From contig CAVRVP010000002.1 of NCBI GenBank assembly GCA_963724675.1, forward strand, positions 340,776 to 404,775: DNA of 64,000 nt, given 5' to 3'. Origin of the DNA: an uncultured Actinomycetes bacterium (GTDB taxonomy: Bacteria; Actinomycetota; Thermoleophilia; Gaiellales; Gaiellaceae). Of the stretch, positions 1,545 through 9,849 are shown piece after piece. Each line of letters starts with the position of its first letter. The stretch's first letter is position 1. The notes under the pieces were generated by a model. The model made no database searches. It saw nothing but the letters and a program-made list of their open reading frames with translations, and was not told where the DNA came from. The position numbers were made by a program, and so were the translations under genes.

Positions 1545-2757
1545 CTACCCCTCCAGCGCCGGCACGGGCTCCCGGAGATGTCGCGCGATGACGGCGACGA
1601 ACATCAGGGAGGCCGCCGTGAAGCCTGCGGCGACGGCGTAGAAGACGGCAGACGTCCCGATCTGCTCGATCACCTGGCCGGCGACGAGGAAGCCCAACGG
1701 GGCCGCGATCGTGTTGACCGCGATGATGGCGGTCATCGCCTTCGGCCGGATCTCCGGTGTCATGCGAGCCGTGAGGACGCCCATGATCGGGCCGTTGACG
1801 AACGGCGTGAAGAACATCGCCGTGAACAGCGCCGCGGTGAACGCCCAGGTGGGAAGATCCATGCCGAGGAGCCACAACGGCAGCGTCACGCCGAGGATCG
1901 CCATGGCGGCGAGCCGCAACGGCTGCACGTGCCGCATGATGCCGACGGCGAGGACGGTGCCGATCAACGCGCCTGCTCCGAGGGCGCTGTAGAAGAGCCC
2001 CGCAACGCGCGGGCTGTCGAAGTCGAGGTACGCGTGCACCGGCAACGCTGCCGACAGCGCCGAGCCGAAGAATCCGAAGACGACGAGCGTCACGACGAGC
2101 GAGCCGATGAACGGGTCGCGCATCACGTAGCGGATCCCGTCGAGCACGCCTCCTTGCGCGCGCTCGCCGAGCGGCTTCGGACGCGGGACGAAGATGAACA
2201 CGAGTAGGAAGGCGACGAGATACGTACCGGCGTCGATGTAGAGGACGTTGGATGCGCCGATCAGGGGAATGAGAATCCCGGCGAGCGCCGGCCCGATCAG
2301 CGAGGCGGCTGCCGTGCCGCCCTCGATGAGCGAGTTCGCCTGCGACATGAGCGTGACGTCCTCGCCGACGAGCTCGGGCAGGATCACGCGCTGTGACGCG
2401 GCGTACGGCGGCATGAACGCACCGAGCGCCGCCACGATCGCCAGGAGAAGGCCGAACGACAGCATGCCCGGCGCTGTAGAGAATCGGGAGCGATGCGATG
2501 AGCGGCGCACGCGCGAGGTCGGCCGTGAGCATCGTCGTCCGCGACCCGAAGCGCTGGACGAACGACCCGCTCGGAATGCCGAGGATCGCCATCGGGAGGA
2601 TCTGGACGGCGAGGACGACGCTCATCTTCGCCGCCGAGCCCGTCGTGACGAGCACGAACCACGGCAGCGCGAGGTACGTCATGCGCGAGCCGAGCGTCGA
2701 GATCAGCTCGGCGGCGACGAGCGCGCCGACAGCCGTCTTGTTCACGCCGCTGTTCAT
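1545..2757 (-). CDS. MFS transporter, reading frame broken once near 2468
   Basis: The C-terminal 321 aa is track ORF 1545..2510. The N-terminus ([40 protein letters not shown]...LYSAG) is in another frame starting at ATG 2755-2757. It is collinear with the intact paralogue at 12153..13382, and one extra base at ...gccggg[c]atgctg... explains the shift. Confidence 0.8.
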
Positions 2758-2768
2758 GTCGATAATAT

Positions 2769-2786
2769 AAAACGTCCGTACGTTTT
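2769..2786. promoter_or_regulatory. Near-perfect 18-bp palindrome, putative TetR operator in the divergent MFS/tetR intergenic region
   Basis: AAAACGTCCGTACGTTTT matches its reverse complement at 16 of 18 positions. It sits in the only AT-rich 43 bp between ATG 2757(-) and ATG 2801(+). It is flanked by -10-like TATATT (minus strand) and TAAAGT (plus strand), each about 6 nt from its ATG. Confidence 0.5.
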
Positions 2787-2800
2787 TGTAAAGTACGACT

Positions 2801-3352
2801 ATGCCGAAGGTCACGGAAGCGCACAAGGAGCTTCGCCGGGAGCAGATCCTCGAAGGCGCACGCCGCTGCTTCGCGCGCCACGGATACGAGGGAGCGACGG
2901 TCGCCCGTCTCGAGGACGAGATCGGCCTGTCGCGCGGCGCGATCTTCAGCTACTACGCGAGCAAGGACGAGCTCTTCGTCGAGATCGCGCTCGAGACATC
3001 GCGGCGCCTCACGGACATCTGGCTGAACGAGGGCTTCCGCGCCGTGCTGGACGCGATTGCCGACGAGGATCCGGACTGGCTCTCCGTCCAGTTCGAGGCG
3101 ACGCGCCGGGTGCGCACGGACGAGGGCTTCCGGCAGCTGATCGAGAAGCGCGAGGAGGAGCTCAAGAAGACGATGGACGAGCGGCTGAAGCGACTCCGCC
3201 CCCACGTCCGCGGTGACGTGCCGATTGTCGGGTGCGCGATGTTCCTCGGCCTCGTCGCGAACGGCCTCGCGCTGCGGCAGTCGATGGGCGATCCGCTTCC
3301 CGACCTCGACGTCGTCGCGCAGCTCGTCGACGAAGGCGTCGCCCCCCGCTAG
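2801..3352 (+). CDS. TetR/AcrR family transcriptional regulator
   Basis: Track ORF of 183 aa. The N-terminal HTH reads [44 protein letters not shown]. It is divergent from an MFS gene. Confidence 0.9.
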
Positions 3353-6300
3353 CCGCCGATCCCGTACCGCTCGCGCTCGTCCGCGGTCAGCGTGCGGCCG
3401 CTCAGCATCAGTTGAGTCTTGGCCAACGCGAGCATGGAATCGAGATCGCCGCAGACGACGCACTCTGCCCTTCGGACCGTGCCATCGGTCGACGCCGACA
3501 GGACGAATCTGCTCGTCGGATCGAAGACGGCGCTCGTGAGAAGCGGCTTGTGGCCACCGAAGCCGTAGGGAAGGATCGGCTCCCGCACGCCGGGCTTCCA
3601 GAGCAGGACGGTGGCTGGGCCTGCAGTCACGATCCAGCGTCCGTCGGGGCTGAAGGACGCATCGGCGACGCTGCCGAAGTGCGCGCGCAGCACTTGCATC
3701 AGGTCACCGGTCTCCGCATTCCACAGTCGGCCGTCGTGGTCTCGGCTTGCAGTTACGAGGAGACGCCCATCCGGGCTGTAGGCGACAGACGTCACGCCGT
3801 CGCGGTGCCCCTTCAGCGCCCGGAGCAACTTTCCGGTCTTCGCGTCCCAGATCCTGGCTGACTTGTCCTTCGACGATGTTGCGATGCGCAGTCCATCCGG
3901 GCTGAAGGCCACATCGGTGATCGGCGCGGTATGGCCGCGCAACCCGCGAAGCGGTCGTCCGTCGGCGGACCAGATCCGCGCGATCCCGTCGCTCCCGCCG
4001 CCGGCAATCGCGGAACCATCGGGCGAGACGGCGACAGCCGCTGCTCCAGGCAAGCCGATCTCGCGCTGCGATCCCCCTCGCCGGATGACCGTGACGCCGC
4101 CGGCGGCGGCGGCGGCAACTGTCCGTCCGTCGGCGCTGGAGGCAACTGCCTTGACCGGTCCCCGAAAGGCGATGGATCGAAGGAACCGGCCATCCGCCGT
4201 GTGCCACCTCAACCGATTGCCGGCGGCTACGACGATGCTCTGGCCGGACGGCAGGTACTCGGCTTCAGCAACGGGCACGCGGGTGCGAACGACAACCTCG
4301 AGCTGCGGTTGCGTCCGCGGATCCCACAGGCGAGCCGTACCGTCGTTGCTCCCCGTCAGCACCGCGGAGCCATCGGGGCTAAACGCGACGCTGCGAATCG
4401 AGTCCTCGTGGCCGTCGAGCCATGCCCGTGCGTCGCCGTTGTCCGCTTTCGAGACGCGGGCGGTGCGATCGTCGCTGCCGGTGACGACGAAGTTCCCATC
4501 CGGGCTGAAAGCGACGGCGCGGACGATGCCCGCGTGACCGACGAGAGACGCGACAAGCGCCCCGGTGCTCACATCCCAGATGCGGCCGGTGCCGTCGGCA
4601 CTGGCGGTCGCCACGCGTGATCCACCCGGGCTAAAGGCGGCATCGAGCACGCTCCCACGGTGACCCTTGAGCTCGTGGAGCAGCGCGCCGTCTCGCAACC
4701 GCCAGATGCGCGCAGTGTCGTTCACACCCGTCGTGACCAACAACCGCGGCCCGTTGCTGAACGCCGCGCTCGTCACGATGTCACCCTGGTCGAACGTCGC
4801 AACGAGACGTCCGTCGACAGCGTCGTACATCCGTGCGCGACGCGGTCGTTGCTCACGACGACGAGACGGCTCCCGTCCGGGTTGAAGGAGACACGCGTTA
4901 CCGGCTTGTCCGAGCGAAGAGTCGCCACTTCGGTGCCATCGACTCTCCAGAGCGTGACGCTGCGCCCTCCGGCCGTCGCCACTCTCACGCCTGGCGGGTC
5001 AATCGCTGCGGCACGGATCGGCGGCCCGTGCCGAAACGTGCGAAGGGGCGTCCCTCTCGTCCACCGACCACAGACGCGCGATGCCATCCGCACCTGCGGT
5101 CAAGACAGAGTGGCTCGATCCGTCGAACGCGGCATCCGCCAGGCGCGCGCCGTGATCGAGCTCGCTCCGGAGCCGGTGCGTCGCAGCGTCGTAGATCCGC
5201 GCGCTGCCGTCCGCGCTCGCGACGACCACGAGCTTGCCGTCGGGAGCTGAATCGTGCGGCCGACACGGCGCCACCCGCGGGAAGGACCGCGCGGCGGCGA
5301 TCGGCGAGGTACGCGCCTCGCAGCGTCGCTTCGGTCTCTTCAGTCGGATCGAGCCGCGCCGCCTCGGCGGCCAAGCTGAGGCTGAGTGACGGATCGCTCG
5401 CCAGGGCAGACACCGCCGATGCCGTGAGCTGCCGCGCTTGTGCTTGGCGAGCCTGCGTCTGCGCTTCGCTGCGCTGGCTGAAGGCGAATGCCGTTACCCC
5501 CGCCATCGCTGCGAGCAGGACGCTGCCCACGACGATCACCCCGAGCAGTCGCCGGTGACGCCGGTGAGACGCCTGCCTCTCGTGCTCGACCTCTCGCTCC
5601 GCTTCGTGGCCGTTTCGCCACGCGAGCACGGCCGTTCCGAGCACGTCGTGGTAGATCTCATACCGGGGCGCACCCCCATTCGGCGCTACGGGCCGGAGGA
5701 TGCGCTCGCGCACGAGCCGAGCCAAGACCGGCTGAAGCTCATCGCCATCTACTTCCGCATACCGCGCGAGATCCGGCTCTGCGTGCGCGATCTTCGTTCC
5801 CGACGGCGTAACGAGCTGATTGAAGATCGACGAGGCGAGGTCGCGCTGGTCGGGCGTCAGCGTCGCGAGCGCACGGTCGAGATGTGTGCGGACGATCTGC
5901 TCGGCGCCCCCTAGCTCGTCGAGCGTGGCTCGCCGAAGCGTGCGAGAGCCGGCCTCGTGCTCAGCGTCCCACAGGCGTTCCATGACAAGCTGAAGAAACG
6001 GCGTCTCTATTCGCGCGCGTGTCTCTGTATCGGCATAGGCGACAGCGCCTTGCCCGCTGTCGCCGAGCGCCACCTTGCCCGCCGCCACCTGGTCGAGCAC
6101 GGCCTCGACGAGCGCTGGCTCGATGGCGACAGGCGGGCCCTCGCCGTCGAGCTCGTTGTATCGCGTGACGGGTCCCACGATCGCCTCGCGGGCGGCATCG
6201 CGGTCGAGATGCTCGAGGCGCAAGTAGTTCGCGAAGAGGCCGGGGATAGTGGCCTTGAACCGGTCGATCTTCGCCAGGGCATCTTCCCGAAGCGCCATGA

Positions 6301-6775
6301 GGAAGCTCGCGCGAAGGCTCGCGCGCCGGATCGCCTCGGGAAACTCCTCGGCAAACGTCCCGGCTCCTTCCTCGTCTTCGTGGTAGAGGAAGTACTCCTC
6401 GAAGCCGTCGAGCACGACAAAGACGTCTCCTCCGAGCCGCGCCGAGCCTGCCTCCAGCATGTCTGCCAGCGTTCCGGCCACGTCAACACCAGTGGCTTCC
6501 GACACGGCGGCGCTCAAGCCCGCTACCGGATCGTCCTTCCAGTTGTCGAAGACGACAACTGCGTGGGCGCCGGCCTTTCGCCGCATCTCGTGAGCCACGC
6601 CCGCACGGAGGACCGAGCTCTTCCCGACACCCGTCTCGCCGTAGAGGACCGTGAGTCGCGACGCCATGAGGTTGGCGCAGATGACTTCCGTCTCGCGCTC
6701 GCGGCCGAAGAAGAACCCCACGTCACGCTCGGAGTCATCGAACGGCGCCAGACCCTTGAACGGAGAGGATCTCAT
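3349..6775 (-). CDS. nSTAND-type P-loop NTPase, one TM helix, about 14-15 WD40 blades; frame broken about 3 times (near 5247, 5055, 4832)
   Basis: The ATG at 6775 (Met44 of track ORF 4985..6904) overlaps the upstream stop as ATGA. Motifs: FKGLAPFDDSERDVGFFFGRERE, Walker A GETGVGKSS, Walker B VFVVLDGFEE, TM LLGVIVVGSVLLAAMAGVTAFAF. WD40 repeats (GH..V..vAFSPDG...S.D.TARIWD) continue through track ORFs 4999..5274, 4773..5093 and 3349..4830. Confidence 0.8.
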
Positions 6776-8436
6776 CTCGCCGCCTCGACGAGGCGCTCGA
6801 CCAGCTGCGTCACGTACTCCTCGAGTGGGACGTCGAAGACGTCCACGCCTCGCCGGCGCCAGAGCTCGCGCTCCACCGGCGTCGCTCCGTCCTCGACGGC
6901 CCATGACCGGTACGCGACGGTCTCCCGTCCCCAGATGCGATGGAGGAAGACGCGCAGGCCCCAGTCACGCAGCGGGTAGCCGAGGAACAAGAAGTGGCTG
7001 CGCCGGAGCTTCGCCACGAGGGTCACCGGCACGAGGCTGGCGACGTCGGCTTGCGCGAGGTAGTCGATGTGGTCGTCCTCGGTCACCGCAAAGCTCTCCC
7101 ACCGACGGTCGGGCTGGCGATCGACCTGACCGAGCAGTCGCAGGATGACGGCGCGATCCTCGAGCGGTATGCCCGTGTACGCGTTCGGTACGTCGACGAC
7201 GGTCGCGTCGTCGCCCGAGACATGGAGGAAGCGGCCCTGGTGCCGGCCGCGCGCGATGTACGAGACGACGTCCGTATCCACGCCCGCTGCCGCGAAGGCA
7301 TGCTCGAGCGCGAGATCGAGATTCGTCGTCACGACGAGGGGGCATGGACCGCCGCGACCGGCCATCAGCCGAGCAACATCCGCCAGAGCGCGGTGAACTG
7401 GGCCAGGCTCGAAGTCGCGGTTCAGCAGATCGTGGAGCTCGTCATACAGAGGTCCGACTCCTCTCATCAGCTCGACGTACTCCGAGACGCGAGCGAGGTC
7501 GCGATGTTCAGGGGGTGAACCGAAGGCGTCAGCGAGATACGCGGCGATGTCGTCGAGACCGGGGATTGGCCGCTGCCCGCCGGCGCCCCGGTTGGCGTCT
7601 GCGCCAACGACCGGTACGACACGCCCGGCAAGGATCGCTTCGGCGATCTCCGCGAGGTGGTCCGTCAACGGCGACGTTGACGGCGTAGGCACGAGTACCG
7701 ACTCCTGCCGCAGGATCGACGAGTAGAGCTGCTGAAGCTTCGGGCCGGGATCGATACCGAGCTCGTCCGACAGCGTCTTGCGCGCATCGTGGTAGACATC
7801 GAGTGCCTCCGCCTGACGGCCGGACCGGTACAGGGCGAGCATGAGCTGTGCGCGCGGACGCTCGCGCAAGGGAAACGCCGCGACGAGAGCTTCCAGTTCC
7901 GCGACGAGCGTCGAGCTTTCGCCCAGGTCGAGCTGAGCCTCCACGCGTTCCTCGACTGCGTCGAGTCGAAGCTCCTCGAGCCGGCGGATCTCACCTTGCG
8001 CGAACGTTTCGAACGCGAGATCGGCGAGAGGCGGCCCACGCCACAGGCTCAGCGCCCGATCGAGCAGCTCGGCTCGCTCAGCGGCGTCGGCAGATCGTGC
8101 CGCCGTCACGAGCCGCTCGAAGCGCGCAAGGTCAAGACTCTCGGAGTCGATCTCGAGGACATAGCCCGGGGGCCGCGTGACGATCGCGTCGGCTCCCAGC
8201 AGCTTGCGCAGCTGCGAAACGTGATTCTGGAGCGACGTGGTCGCCGTTCTTGGCGGCTGCTCACCCCAGAGCTGGTCGACGAGCCGCTCGGTGGCTACCA
8301 CCTCTCCGGCGCGCATGAGCAGAAGGCCGAGCAGCGCCCGCTGCTTCTGTCCGCCTAGCGAGATCGAGCCATCCTCGCCAACGACCTCGAGCGGTCCGAG
8401 GATCCGAAAGTCTGGCATCTGAGCGGGTTGTACCAC
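6772..8436 (-). CDS. SARP-family regulator module (OmpR-type winged helix + BTAD) fused to a C-terminal SIR2-like (SIR2_2 type) domain
   Basis: Intact track ORF of 554 aa. wHTH: FRILGPLEVVG..LVDQLWGE..TRPPGYVLEI. BTAD: LWRGPPLADL..RAQLMLALYRSGRQAEALDVYHDARKTL. SIR2-like: GRVVPVVGAD, PLVVTTNLDLALEHAF, SHFLFLGYPLRDWGLRVF. An alternative start is Met7 at 8418. Confidence 0.8.
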   Translation of the reverse strand: MVQPAQMPDFRILGPLEVVGEDGSISLGGQKQRALLGLLLMRAGEVVATERLVDQLWGEQPPRTATTSLQNHVSQLRKLLGADAIVTRPPGYVLEIDSESLDLARFERLVTAARSADAAERAELLDRALSLWRGPPLADLAFETFAQGEIRRLEELRLDAVEERVEAQLDLGESSTLVAELEALVAAFPLRERPRAQLMLALYRSGRQAEALDVYHDARKTLSDELGIDPGPKLQQLYSSILRQESVLVPTPSTSPLTDHLAEIAEAILAGRVVPVVGADANRGAGGQRPIPGLDDIAAYLADAFGSPPEHRDLARVSEYVELMRGVGPLYDELHDLLNRDFEPGPVHRALADVARLMAGRGGPCPLVVTTNLDLALEHAFAAAGVDTDVVSYIARGRHQGRFLHVSGDDATVVDVPNAYTGIPLEDRAVILRLLGQVDRQPDRRWESFAVTEDDHIDYLAQADVASLVPVTLVAKLRRSHFLFLGYPLRDWGLRVFLHRIWGRETVAYRSWAVEDGATPVERELWRRRGVDVFDVPLEEYVTQLVERLVEAAR

Positions 8437-8521
8437 CCCTCACTGCCGCTGCCTAGGTGCCGTTAGCGGCTCATTAGGTCGTCGTGACCGAGCGATTTGG
8501 GCCCCGCCCGACGGTGGGGCC

Positions 8522-9849
8522 ATGCTCAATCTCAACACCCACATCCGTCGCGGTGAGCGCACCCGCACGCTACTTCTCCTCGCAGCACTCAGCCTTGCTG
8601 TCAGTTCCTTCGTCGTCTCGGCGGCCTGCCCCGCCCACCGCTTCGAGCTCTCGTTCGAGGAAGAGGAGGAGCTCGAAGGCAGGGCGCCGACGGTCGTCGA
8701 GCTGACGCCGGGCGTCGAGGCCGCCTTCCCGCGCGAGAGCTACGCGCCGCGCAGCACTGCCGAGCTCCGGTTGTACACGCGCGAGCAAAGCCTGCGGCTC
8801 CAGATCTTCCACTCAGGCCCCGAGGGGACTCGAACGATCGACAACATCACGATGCATGGCGAGCCGATGACGAAGCCGGTCGCGGTCGGCAAGGGCCGCC
8901 GGACAATCCGCGTTCGTATCGGTGCGTGGCCGAGCGGCCTGTACTTCGCCAGGCTCGCGGCCGCCGACGGACGGCTCGGGTTTGCGCCCTTCGTCGTTCA
9001 CCCGAGGCGACTCGGACAGCACCGCATCGCCGTCGTACTGCCGACACGAACGTGGCAGGCGTACAACCTCCGCGACATGGACCGCGACGGCATCGGCGAC
9101 ACCTGGTACGCGAGCTGGAACCACATGACCGTCGACCTCACCCGGCCGTTCTTGAATCGCGGAGTCCCGAACTACTTCCGCCGGTACGACCTCCCCTTCC
9201 TCCACTGGCTCAGTTGGACACATCGCGACGTCGATTACCTGTCGCAGATCCGACCTCGAGTCGGCGCCCAGCGCGGTCAGGGCTCGCGAAGGCCTATGAC
9301 CTGATCATCTTCCCGGGTCATCACGAGTACGTGACGACCCGCGAGTACGACCTCGTCGAGGGCTACCGCGACCTGGGCGGAAACCTCATGTTCCTCTCCG
9401 CGAACAACTTCTTCTGGCGCGTGATCAAGCGCGGCAACATCATCGAGAAGACGAAGCGCTGGCGCGACCTCGGTCGGCCCGAGGCGGCCTTGCTAGGTGT
9501 CCAGTACCGCGGCAACGACAACGGCGGGCACCGGGGTCGGTGGGTGCTGCGCAGCACCCCTTCGTCCCGGTGGATCTTCGCTCGCACCGGTCTCCACGCA
9601 GGCGACCTGTTCGGAAGCGGAAGCATCGAGATCGACCAGATGTCGGAGGCCTCACCTCACGGAACGCAGGTGCTGGCGGAGATCCCGAACCTGTTCGGGC
9701 CGGGCTTCACCGCGCAGATGACGTATTACGAGACCGCCAGCGGAGCGAAGGTCTTCGCGGCCGGCGCATTCACGCTGGCGGGCGCCGTCTACCGCCCGGA
9801 GGTCAAGAAGGTCGTCGAGAACCTCTGGACGAAGCTCTCGACGCCGTGA
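8522..9849 (+). CDS. N,N-dimethylformamidase beta-subunit-like (DUF6605-type) protein with N-terminal signal/TM; frame broken twice (near 9247 and 9277)
   Basis: Joins track ORFs 8522..9304 and 8926..9849 through a short third-frame piece (SDLESAPSAVR). Motifs: WQAYN, LIIFPGHHEYVT, GGNLMFLSANNFFWRV, GVQYRG. Confidence 0.6.

What the first reader, a model, noticed from the sequence alone, without database searches (positions are those of the whole stretch)
3349..8436. Coupled SARP(wHTH+BTAD)-SIR2 fusion and membrane-anchored nSTAND ATPase-WD40 gene: candidate NAD-targeting conflict/immunity module
Seen in sequence:
- 6772..8436(-) is an intact 554-aa protein. An OmpR-type winged helix plus BTAD (FRILGPLEV, LWRGPPLADL, RAQLMLALYRSGRQAEALDVY) is joined by a short Pro/Ser linker to a SIR2_2-like domain (VVPVVGAD, VVTTNLDLALE, FLFLGYPLRDWGLR).
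- Its TGA overlaps the ATG of the next gene (ATGA at 6772-6775).
- That gene carries FKGLAPFDDSERDVGFFFGRE, Walker A GETGVGKSS, Walker B VFVVLDGFEE, one TM helix and about 14-15 WD40 blades.

Established knowledge:
- SIR2 domains are NAD-consuming effectors in Thoeris, DSR1/DSR2, SIR2-HerA, short-pAgo systems and some Avs-type STAND proteins.
- STAND ATPases with WD40/TPR arrays are the bacterial NLR-like sensors, and nSTAND-WD40 conflict systems have been predicted in multicellular Actinobacteria.
- SARPs are normally antibiotic-cluster activators, and AfsR-type SARP-NTPase-TPR fusions are single polypeptides.

Inference: here the DNA-binding SARP module carries the putative effector, while the sensor ATPase is a separate, translationally coupled, membrane-anchored protein. 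I do not recognise this partition from any named defence system. The pair lies in a variable stretch that interrupts a conserved backbone. I cannot verify novelty without searches.
Basis: partly seen in the sequence, partly recalled or inferred. Interest (0 to 1): 0.8.

Follow-up and report, generated by a model that had tools for sequence, protein, structure and literature searches.

The report
SARP–SIR2-like regulator with membrane STAND partner
A conserved, unnamed two-gene module of soil Actinomycetota pairs a DNA-binding activator carrying a catalytically eroded SIR2 domain with a membrane-anchored STAND ATPase–WD40 protein, so it more likely switches transcription than destroys NAD.

Summary
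Gene A (6772-8418, minus strand) is wHTH + BTAD + SIR2_2. Gene B (3349-6775, minus strand) is nSTAND1 + one TM helix + about 14 WD40 blades. It starts in an ATGA overlap and has three frame breaks.

- **Not a variable insert.** The nSTAND1 gene lies immediately downstream of the SARP-SIR2 gene in 81/81 related loci. The pair sits in conserved synteny (uvrB on one side, a secreted amidase-like gene on the other) and diverges in step with UvrB.
- **SIR2 catalytic site eroded.** The window has Leu at the catalytic His (equivalent to KomC H146) and a degenerate Gly loop. Across the SARP-fused clade, Asn, His or both are often lost. Stand-alone relatives keep the canonical GAG/TTNYD/HG motifs.
- **A wider module.** The same SIR2 subfamily, alone or fused to TIR, CHAT, a kinase or a cyclase, always precedes an nSTAND1-WD40 gene where I could look. 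This is an unnamed [variable head]-SIR2 + nSTAND1 module.
- **Candidate SARP box.** Three heptamers at 11-bp spacing lie upstream of gene A.

Best reading: a STAND-controlled SARP transcription switch derived from a SIR2/STAND conflict system. The frame breaks are probably long-read assembly errors.

The parts
6772..8418 (-). Gene A: SARP-SIR2-like protein, 548 aa from ATG 8418.
   Evidence: ORF. Pfam. Identical public protein P0001 of 548 aa. AF2 model with mean pLDDT 84.5.
8158..8349 (-). OmpR-type winged helix (Trans_reg_C)
   Evidence: Pfam E 5.9e-11. Foldseek to the AfsR SARP module, TM(target) 0.90, 44% identity.
7711..8136 (-). BTAD domain
   Evidence: Pfam E 1e-48. PDB sequence hits to AfsR and EmbR.
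6775..7665 (-). SIR2_2-like domain (residues about 252-548)
   Evidence: Pfam E 2.2e-12. Profile hit to the KomC SIR2 NADase, E 1.4e-11. Foldseek to KomC, ThsA and DSR2, TM(target) about 0.7.
7132..7134 (-). Leu429 at the position of the SIR2 catalytic histidine (KomC H146)
   Evidence: Alignment of the family motif 'klHG' to KomC 'KFHG'. Motif tables. Coordinates.
7591..7620 (-). Degenerate NAD-binding glycine loop (VVPVVGADAN, against FLGAGVN in stand-alone relatives)
7321..7323 (-). Asn366 of TTN(L)D. The catalytic Asn is retained in this copy.
6772..6775 (-). ATGA stop/start overlap of genes A and B
   Evidence: Sequence. The same -4 overlap occurs in 77/81 loci.
3349..6775 (-). Gene B: nSTAND1-TM-WD40. 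It is broken into four frame segments in this assembly. Intact orthologues are 1140-1154 aa.
5633..6763 (-). nSTAND1 NTPase domain, with Walker A at 6614-6640 and Walker B at 6395-6424
   Evidence: Pfam E 2.1e-45. Motif coordinates.
5480..5548 (-). Single predicted transmembrane helix, preceded by RRHRR (5549-5563)
   Evidence: An equivalent helix is present in 47/48 full-length orthologues, with 4-8 K/R on the N-terminal side. It is also present in partners of SARP-less relatives.
3349..5250 (-). WD40 repeat region: about 14 blades (estimated, not counted) plus a C-terminal tail
   Evidence: Pfam WD40 E 8.5e-84 on the last 493 aa, and further blades in the other frames.
5240..5250 (-). Frame break 1: an extra base in AGCTCCCGAC
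5040..5070 (-). Frame break 2, around GAGAGGGAC
4835..4845 (-). Frame break 3: GTCGCGCACGG, apparently 2 extra bases
8459..8487 (-). Three heptamers at 11-bp spacing (TCACGAC / TAATGAG / TAACGGC): a candidate SARP box in the divergent intergenic region
   Evidence: It is the only site scoring at least 16/21 in the 64-kb window on either strand. The orthologous site is present in 35/78 loci, against 0.0018 expected per 260 nt.
8427..8432 (-). -10-like TACAAC (extended TGg) 8 nt before the gene A ATG, which suggests a leaderless or near-leaderless mRNA
   Evidence: Sequence. TGCTACAA is conserved before the start codon in relatives. Inference only.
8522..9304 (+). Divergent gene for a secreted DMFA2_C (amidase/acylase-like) protein, truncated here. 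It is a probable regulatory target and a linked third gene.
   Evidence: Pfam. PDB relatives are N-acetyl-beta-phenylalanine acylase and DMFase. It is linked to the pair in 40/67 loci.

Best explanation
The pair is a lineage-specific signalling module derived from a SIR2 + STAND conflict system.

**Proposed mechanism**
- Gene B is a membrane-anchored STAND ATPase. Its nSTAND1 domain is cytoplasmic. By inference from the single TM helix and the positive-inside rule, its WD40 propellers face outward.
- Gene B senses a cue and changes its nucleotide or oligomeric state.
- It acts on gene A through A's SIR2-like domain. In this clade that domain is kept as a docking or oligomerisation module, not as an NADase.
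- The SARP head of A then binds the three 11-bp-spaced heptamers in the divergent intergenic region. It controls the adjacent secreted amidase-like gene, its own operon, or both.

**Shown**
- Domain content.
- Strict gene coupling.
- Vertical inheritance in conserved synteny.
- Loss of the catalytic His in this copy, and erosion of catalytic motifs across the SARP-fused clade.
- A position-specific direct-repeat motif upstream of gene A.
- A wider [variable head]-SIR2 + nSTAND1-TM-WD40 family.

**Inferred**
- The A-B physical contact.
- The membrane topology.
- DNA binding at the repeats.
- The direction of regulation.

The three frame breaks in gene B are most likely long-read assembly errors.
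For: **Coupling**
- The nSTAND1 gene lies immediately downstream of the SARP-SIR2 gene in 81/81 loci.
- A -4 overlap is kept in 77/81 loci.
- Single-chain nSTAND1-SIR2 fusions exist: P0371, P0377, P0408 and P0415.

**Constant SIR2 with a variable head**
- Every head type examined has an nSTAND1 gene next to it or overlapping it.
- Head types: stand-alone (L083, L084), TIR-SIR2 (L086), CHAT-SIR2 (L088), kinase-SIR2 (L089).

**Catalytic erosion**
- Leu429 aligns with KomC H146.
- In 81 genomic loci the His position is H 72, L 6, Y 2, N 1. The Asn is present in about 25.
- In metagenome proteins both residues are present in 87/208.
- At the 50%-identity cluster level, stand-alone forms are canonical in 66/81 and SARP-fused forms in 3/10.

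**A genuine SARP**
- 44% identity and TM(target) 0.90 to AfsR.
- The repeat motif is at the orthologous position in 35/78 loci, against 0.0018 expected per 260 nt.
- It is the only such site in the 64-kb window.

**Not a mobile island**
- Synteny with uvrB in 43/81 loci and a DMFA2_C gene in 44/81.
- Identity to the window falls in step with UvrB.
- The flanking genes are housekeeping genes.

**TM helix**
- Conserved in 47/48 full-length orthologues, with a basic N-terminal flank.

**Assembly error**
- Frame breaks in the nSTAND1 part occur in 8/36 long-read-type loci and 0/45 other loci.
- The window's MFS gene is also frame-broken.
Against: - No experiment supports any step, and no structural model of the A-B complex could be made.
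- The WD40 region evolves fastest (median 40% identity, against 55% for nSTAND1 and 64% for SARP). Gene B length varies from about 890 to 1360 aa. Both are features typical of immune sensors.
- Relatives carry classical conflict effectors (TIR, CHAT), so a defence role for the family as a whole is plausible.
- Many SARP-fused members keep both Asn and His (87/208) and could still be NADases.
- The distance from the repeats to gene A's -10 is not conserved. No convincing -10 lies between the repeats and the divergent gene.
- The repeat consensus was derived from these same loci. The heptamer-versus-spacer information contrast is therefore circular.
- If the frame breaks are real, gene B is truncated to 596 aa, as the public record annotates it (P0240).
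Confidence: 0.45

Rival explanations
1. One reading: an abortive-infection or conflict module. The nSTAND1-WD40 protein senses an invader and switches on NAD+ hydrolysis by the SIR2 domain of gene A. The SARP head only tethers or autoregulates.
For: - The SIR2 fold is closest to the defence NADases KomC, ThsA and DSR2.
- Stand-alone and TIR- or CHAT-fused relatives have canonical catalytic motifs and the same nSTAND1 partner.
- The WD40 region is fast-evolving and variable in length.
- Asn366 is retained in the window.
Against: - The window and its closest relatives have Leu at the catalytic His, and the Gly loop is degenerate.
- Catalytic positions drift across the SARP-fused clade.
- The locus is vertically inherited, syntenic and set among housekeeping genes.
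- There is no PADLOC hit above noise.
Confidence: 0.17
2. A decaying relic in this genome. The three frame shifts are real, gene B is a pseudogene (or a 596-aa nSTAND1-TM stump), and the module no longer works as a pair here.
For: - There are three independent frame breaks, and the first is uncompensated.
- The public record calls a 596-aa product (P0240).
- None of the three break sites lies in a long homopolymer.
Against: - Every frame segment still reads as clean, conserved WD40 sequence with no internal stops.
- Similar breaks occur only in long-read-type assemblies of relatives: 8/36 against 0/45.
- The neighbouring MFS gene is frame-broken as well, and the DMFA2_C gene is truncated or fragmented.
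- Gene A is intact.
Confidence: 0.15
3. An ordinary pathway-specific SARP activator whose SIR2-like domain is a protein deacylase or a ligand (NAD/ADPR)-binding regulatory domain. The neighbouring STAND gene would be only loosely related.
For: - SARPs are classically cluster-situated activators, and the N-terminal half is AfsR-like.
- A candidate binding site lies next to a secreted enzyme gene.
Against: - Adjacency in 81/81 loci with translational overlap, together with nSTAND1-SIR2 fusions, argues for tight coupling.
- The domain belongs to the SIR2_2 (defence-type) branch, not to the sirtuin deacylases.
- The NAD-binding loop is degenerate.
Confidence: 0.08

Closest known systems
AfsR-type 'large SARP' regulators (SARP-NB-ARC-TPR) of Streptomyces
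   Same: - The SARP head is 44% identical and superposes with TM(target) 0.90.
- A STAND ATPase with a repeat domain is coupled to a SARP output.
- Candidate target repeats have 11-bp periodicity.
   Different: - Two polypeptides instead of one.
- The ATPase is nSTAND1, not NB-ARC.
- The repeats are WD40 behind a TM helix, not cytoplasmic TPR.
- A SIR2-like domain lies between the SARP head and the ATPase partner.
SIR2 NADase defence effectors (ThsA of Thoeris, DSR2, KomC of Kongming; SIR2-STAND/Avs-type fusions)
   Same: - The same SIR2_2 fold.
- The same partnership logic with a sensor NTPase.
- Stand-alone relatives of this subfamily keep the GAG/TTNYD/HG motifs.
   Different: - In the window the catalytic His is Leu and the Gly loop is degenerate.
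- The domain is fused to a DNA-binding SARP.
- The locus is vertically inherited in housekeeping synteny.
- No PADLOC model matches above noise.
nSTAND1 conflict systems predicted by Kaur, Iyer, Burroughs and Aravind (eLife 2021, PMC8195603)
   Same: - The same NTPase clade (Pfam PF20703).
- The same pattern of a constant core with alternative effector heads such as TIR, caspase-like protease and kinase.
   Different: - The section of that paper I read describes nSTAND1 with FGS and EAD contexts.
- It does not describe a SIR2 partner gene, a TM-anchored WD40 array or a SARP head.
Membrane-anchored wHTH regulators and receptor kinases with extracellular beta-propellers (ToxR/CadC; PknD), recalled from general knowledge and not tested here
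   Same: The logic is the same: a cytoplasmic signalling domain, one TM helix and an extracytoplasmic sensor controlling an OmpR-type wHTH output.
   Different: Here the transducer is a STAND ATPase, and the wHTH is on a separate soluble protein. The topology is only inferred.

Membership tests
SARP (Streptomyces antibiotic regulatory protein) family | OmpR-type winged-helix DNA-binding domain | tested here: met
   Trans_reg_C E 5.9e-11. Foldseek to AfsR, TM(target) 0.90.
SARP (Streptomyces antibiotic regulatory protein) family | BTAD helical domain following the wHTH | tested here: met
   BTAD E 1e-48, covering the full model 1-146.
SARP (Streptomyces antibiotic regulatory protein) family | Binds direct heptamer repeats spaced one helical turn (11 bp) apart at target promoters | tested here: inconclusive
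   A three-heptamer, 11-bp-period motif lies at 8459-8487 and at the orthologous site in 35/78 loci. Binding was not tested, and the promoter geometry is unclear.
SIR2 NADase effectors (ThsA/DSR2/KomC type) | SIR2_2 Rossmann-like fold | tested here: met
   Pfam SIR2_2 E 2.2e-12. Foldseek probability 1.0 to KomC, ThsA and DSR2.
SIR2 NADase effectors (ThsA/DSR2/KomC type) | Catalytic histidine of the 'HG' motif (KomC H146, DSR2 H171) | tested here: not met
   The window has Leu429 (ILRLLGQVD). The same Leu is found in the closest relatives.
SIR2 NADase effectors (ThsA/DSR2/KomC type) | Catalytic asparagine of 'TTNYD' | tested here: met
   The window has VVTTNLD with Asn366. This Asn is lost in most other SARP-fused loci.
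SIR2 NADase effectors (ThsA/DSR2/KomC type) | Gly-rich NAD-binding loop (GAGxS/N) | tested here: not met
   The window has VVGADAN. Stand-alone relatives have FLGAGVN.
SIR2 NADase effectors (ThsA/DSR2/KomC type) | NAD+ hydrolysis on activation | not testable with these tools
   This needs an enzyme assay.
nSTAND1 STAND NTPases | Match to the nSTAND1 profile with intact Walker A and Walker B | tested here: met
   PF20703 E 2.1e-45. GETGVGKSS and VFVVLDGFEE are present. Walker A is conserved in orthologues.
nSTAND1 STAND NTPases | C-terminal superstructure-forming repeat sensor on the same polypeptide | tested here: inconclusive
   The WD40 array is present, but in this assembly it is separated from the NTPase by a frame shift. 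It is contiguous in orthologues.
AfsR-type large SARPs | SARP, STAND ATPase and repeats in one polypeptide, with an NB-ARC-type ATPase | tested here: not met
   There are two genes. The ATPase matches nSTAND1, and no NB-ARC hit was found. The NCBIfam AfsR model scores 215 bits against a cut-off of 1430.
Named anti-phage systems (PADLOC-DB v2.0: Thoeris, DSR, Avs, SIR2-HerA and others) | Significant match of the component proteins to a system model | tested here: not met
   Only marginal hits were found (SIR2 E 3e-3, mad8 E 1.7e-5), for the window pair and for a SARP-less pair. DefenseFinder could not be run.
Named anti-phage systems (PADLOC-DB v2.0: Thoeris, DSR, Avs, SIR2-HerA and others) | Patchy, horizontally mobile distribution in defence islands | tested here: not met
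   Synteny with uvrB and DMFA2_C is conserved. Divergence parallels UvrB. The neighbours are housekeeping genes.

The most novel reading that the evidence does not exclude
A widespread, undescribed class of transmembrane NLR-like receptors. An nSTAND1 ATPase sits inside the cell, with WD40 propellers outside. It signals through a dedicated SIR2-family partner domain whose N-terminal head sets the output: NADase alone, TIR, caspase-like protease, kinase, cyclase or SARP.

In the Gaiellaceae-like lineage of this window, the immune-type SIR2 effector has been exapted into a catalytically dead adaptor. It would couple an extracellular cue to SARP-driven transcription of a secreted amidase-like enzyme.
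Probability: 0.3. Interest if true: 0.8.

Novelty: new variant of a known kind. Interest (0 to 1): 0.6.

Why it matters
**For the field.** If correct, a SIR2 'suicide' effector can be repurposed as a signalling adaptor. It would also mean bacterial STAND/NLR-like ATPases can work as membrane receptors with external propellers.

**Scale of the family.**
- The [head]-SIR2 + nSTAND1-TM-WD40 module is not covered by PADLOC-DB v2.0.
- The SIR2 subfamily comprises 565 clusters at E<=1e-30.
- The SARP-fused relatives occur in 317 species-level genomes.

**For annotators.** The catalytic-site analysis warns against labelling every SIR2_2 + STAND pair as NAD-depleting defence.

**For this window.** The practical message is that gene B is probably intact in the organism, and that the pair is core chromosomal rather than an island.

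Tried and rejected
- **Named systems.** PADLOC and NCBIfam scans of both proteins and of a SARP-less pair gave only noise-level hits.
- **Literature.** Searches for SARP/BTAD + SIR2 + nSTAND found nothing describing this pair. I read parts of PMC8195603, PMC7159879, PMC12803255 and PMC13622651.
- **'Fusion' proteins from long-read data.** P0297/L082 and P0226/L085 looked like SIR2-nSTAND1 fusions or SARP-less forms.
  - L085 is a frame-shifted SARP-fused gene.
  - The L082 fusion is a read-through artefact, although L082 does seem to lack a SARP head.
- **A hairpin.** A GGCCCC/GGGGCC hairpin (8500-8521) abuts the start codon of the divergent gene and looked covarying by eye.
  - RNAalifold found no consensus structure.
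  - Pair counts equal the shuffled controls, 59.7% against 58.7% paired.
  - I rejected it as a conserved structure. Rfam found nothing there.
- **Heptamer versus spacer information content**. Heptamers score higher (1.3 against 0.56 bits), but the sites were selected with the heptamer consensus. I give this no weight.
- **Source record.** The look-up of encoding contigs could not retrieve the contig for P0001. The cluster look-up gave no name or organism.
- **A-B complex model.** Not attempted. The tool takes single chains from a restricted set and returns no inter-chain confidence.

Full report
**1. What is in the sequence**

On the minus strand, ORF 6772..8436 (554 aa from GTG) is intact. 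Pfam finds Trans_reg_C (E 5.9e-11), BTAD (1e-48) and SIR2_2 (2.2e-12). The public protein identical to it (P0001) is 548 aa. That corresponds to ATG 8418. A TGgTACAAC extended -10-like element lies 8 nt upstream of this ATG.

The gene's TGA overlaps the ATG of the next gene (ATGA, 6772-6775). That second gene encodes:
- the nSTAND1 domain (E 2.1e-45), with Walker A at 6614-6640 and Walker B at 6395-6424;
- one strongly hydrophobic helix at 5480-5548, preceded by RRHRR;
- WD40 repeats.

The reading frame changes three times, near 5245, 5050 and 4840. Each segment still reads as clean WD40 sequence. Intact orthologues are 1140-1154 aa.

**2. Are the frame breaks real?**

Related loci from long-read-type assemblies (MFD/ERZ records) show frame breaks in the nSTAND1 part in 8 of 36 cases. 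Loci from other assemblies show none in 45. In the window the neighbouring MFS gene is also frame-broken, and the DMFA2_C gene is truncated. The window's proteins sit on a 718,950-bp contig, and the public record calls a 596-aa product for gene B (P0240). I consider assembly error the likelier cause, at roughly 70:30. None of the three break sites is a long homopolymer, so real mutations are not excluded.

**3. Distribution and context**

The three-domain architecture of gene A is common.
- More than 120 protein clusters at 60% identity or above all carry it.
- A scan of one genome per species found 317 stretches encoding a relative.
- The best 80 are all soil or sediment MAGs. Nearly all are labelled Gaiellaceae, Thermoleophilia, Actinomycetes or Actinomycetota. 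One is labelled Pseudomonadota (L057).

In all 81 loci examined, an nSTAND1 homologue lies immediately downstream. A 4-nt overlap is kept in 77 of them.

The pair is not in a variable insert.
- uvrB lies downstream in 43/81 loci, and a DMFA2_C-domain gene is linked in 44/81.
- Among loci with enough upstream flank, the DMFA2_C gene is linked in 40/67.
- The TetR-MFS cassette between the pair and uvrB is the variable element, present in only 13-18/81 loci.
- Identity to the window falls in step with UvrB. Medians are UvrB 82%, SARP 64%, nSTAND1 55%, SIR2-like 52.5% and WD40 40%.

This is the signature of vertical descent, with a fast-evolving sensor region.

**4. The SIR2 domain is eroded**

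The AF2 model (mean pLDDT 84.5) matches AfsR over the N-terminal half (TM(target) 0.90). It matches KomC, ThsA and DSR2 over the C-terminal half (TM(target) about 0.7).

A profile of the SIR2 part aligns to KomC:
- family 'ttnyd' aligns with KomC TTNYD;
- family 'klHG' aligns with KomC KFHG, whose His146 is the residue mutated in the PDB entry 'KomC(H146N)'.

The window has Leu429 at that His, in the motif ILRLLGQVD. Its glycine loop is VVGADAN. Asn366 is retained. The Leu is shared by the closest relatives (L001-L004, L024, and 31-37 metagenome proteins), so it is not a sequencing error.

Erosion is clade-wide:

| Sample | Result |
|---|---|
| 81 genomic loci, His position | H 72, L 6, Y 2, N 1 |
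| 81 genomic loci, Asn position | Asn in about 25; otherwise S, G, H, A, T and others |
| Metagenome proteins | both residues in 87 of 208 |
| Stand-alone (~320 aa) members, 50%-identity clusters | canonical FLGAGVN/TTNYD/KIHG in 66/81 |
| SARP-fused representatives, 50%-identity clusters | canonical in 3/10 |

Other positions stay invariant, for example RRSHFLFLGY, EDDxIDY and GPLYDELH. The fold is therefore under selection, but catalysis evidently is not.

**5. A wider module**

Searching the SIR2-like domain alone against 1.84 billion representative proteins gave 565 clusters at E<=1e-30. Architectures include:
- stand-alone SIR2;
- SARP-SIR2;
- a form with an N-terminal extension of about 220 aa ahead of the SARP head;
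- TIR-SIR2, CHAT-SIR2, Ser/Thr-kinase-SIR2 and cyclase-SIR2;
- single-chain nSTAND1-(HEAT)-SIR2.

Wherever I could read the neighbourhood, an nSTAND1 gene was adjacent or overlapping:
- L083 and L084, stand-alone;
- L086, TIR-SIR2 with a 1426-aa nSTAND1-WD40 partner;
- L088, CHAT-SIR2;
- L089, kinase-SIR2.

The two-gene partners examined (L083, L084 and L086) all have the TM helix. The single-chain nSTAND1-SIR2 fusions do not.

The general pattern is a constant SIR2 domain plus a constant nSTAND1(-TM-WD40) partner, with a variable N-terminal head. This is the organisation typical of predicted conflict systems (PMC8195603). The nSTAND1-SIR2 fusions are Rosetta-stone evidence for direct coupling.

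**6. A candidate SARP box**

The 103-nt region between gene A and the divergent gene (ATG 8522) holds three heptamers at exact 11-bp spacing: TCACGAC, TAATGAG and TAACGGC (8487..8459, minus strand). This is the only site in the 64-kb window, on either strand, that scores at least 16/21 against TAACGGC x3.

The orthologous site, with consensus TCACGGC-N4-TAACGGC-N4-TAACGGC, lies within 260 nt upstream of gene A on the same strand in 35/78 loci. The rate elsewhere in the same loci is 0.0018 per 260 nt. L001 and L004 carry a second copy, apparently ahead of a further DMFA2_C-like paralogue.

Direct heptamers one helical turn apart are the classical SARP target geometry (general knowledge). Binding is untested. 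The consensus comes from these same loci. Shared ancestry inflates the counts.

The divergent gene encodes a protein with a signal-peptide-like N-terminus. It carries a DMFA2_C domain related to N-acetyl-beta-phenylalanine acylase and dimethylformamidase.

**7. Mechanism**

The most economical reading is a STAND-controlled SARP switch.
- The cytoplasmic nSTAND1 ATPase is anchored by one TM helix. Its N-terminal flank is basic in 47/48 orthologues. The WD40 propellers must therefore lie outside, unless the helix does not span the membrane. This is an inference.
- The SIR2-like domain of gene A is the module that meets nSTAND1. This is inferred from strict coupling and from the fusions.
- The SARP head delivers the output at the repeat site. 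This is also an inference.

Whether the STAND protein sequesters gene A or activates it cannot be decided from sequence.

The origin from a SIR2 NADase + STAND conflict system is supported by the canonical stand-alone and TIR/CHAT relatives.

Rivals:
- A still-active NAD-depleting defence. It is weakened by Leu429, the degenerate Gly loop, vertical synteny and the lack of PADLOC hits.
- A decaying pseudogene pair in this genome.
- An ordinary SARP only loosely linked to the STAND gene. Adjacency in 81/81 loci contradicts this.

**8. Comparison with known systems**

- It works like an AfsR-type large SARP split into two proteins. It fails membership: two polypeptides, nSTAND1 rather than NB-ARC, and an NCBIfam AfsR score far below the cut-off.
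- It shares fold and partner logic with ThsA, DSR2, KomC and SIR2-STAND defence proteins. It fails two of three catalytic-motif tests.
- Gene B is a member of nSTAND1.
- No named defence system matches. DefenseFinder could not be run.
- I found no paper describing SARP-SIR2 or SIR2 + nSTAND1-TM-WD40 pairs in the library available. That is not proof of absence.

**9. Verdict**

- Novelty: a new variant of a known kind (STAND + SIR2/effector modules; SARP-STAND regulators).
- Interest is moderate to high, at 0.6. The family is large, uncharacterised and architecturally unusual. It offers testable cases of effector-to-adaptor exaptation and of a transmembrane STAND receptor. Every mechanistic step beyond the anatomy is still inference.

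Noticed in passing
window 1545-2770 (-) and 8522-9304 (+): The MFS transporter gene downstream of the TetR gene is frame-broken (tblastn pieces 2724-2464 and 2468-1623). The DMFA2_C gene is only a 260-aa fragment, against 442 aa in L032. Both fit a generally indel-prone assembly.
   Followed up: partly
window 8500-8521: A 6-bp GGCCCC/GGGGCC hairpin abuts the start codon of the divergent gene. It looked covarying by eye, but RNAalifold found no consensus and pair counts equal the shuffled controls. The conserved element there is the sequence CGACGGTGG (probably the RBS region), plus a T-rich TTTGG(G) element 8 nt from the proximal heptamer.
   Followed up: yes
P0066, P0090 (751-753 aa); L009 and L037 upstream of position 8001: Some family members carry an extra N-terminal region of about 220 aa ahead of the SARP head. 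JGI names it a class 3 adenylate cyclase, but Pfam did not call it at E<=1e-4 in P0066. Separate cyclase-SIR2 proteins without a SARP head also exist (P0380, P0203, P0218).
   Followed up: partly
L086 771-8513; L088 6001-9440; L089 206-2166: The same SIR2 subfamily is fused to TIR_2, CHAT (caspase-like) or Ser/Thr kinase heads. Each is followed by an nSTAND1 gene. L086 also has an extra stand-alone TIR_2 gene and a small 105-aa ORF between the two genes.
   Followed up: partly
P0371, P0377, P0408, P0415 (950-1080 aa): These are single-chain nSTAND1-(HEAT-like linker)-SIR2_2 proteins without a TM helix. Several have the catalytic His replaced (KING, KLSG).
   Followed up: partly
L001 about 8760 and L004 about 6759: A second copy of the triple 11-bp-period heptamer motif lies further upstream, apparently ahead of an additional DMFA2_C-like paralogue. 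This hints at a small regulon.
   Followed up: no
window 2801-3352 (+) and 1545-2770 (-); the same position in related loci: The TetR + MFS cassette between the pair and uvrB is present in only 13-18 of 81 loci. It is the variable element at this locus, not the SARP-SIR2/nSTAND1 pair.
   Followed up: partly
window 8427-8436 (-) and the equivalent position in L005, L007, L012, L031-L033: A conserved TGnTACAA element lies 6-8 nt before the start codon of gene A. This suggests an extended -10 promoter and a leaderless or near-leaderless transcript.
   Followed up: no
L082 3927-5510 (-): A SARP-less SIR2/nSTAND1 locus has a divergent Ser/Thr protein kinase gene and a nearby DMFA2_C gene. The amidase-like gene may therefore be linked to the module even without the SARP head.
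   Followed up: no
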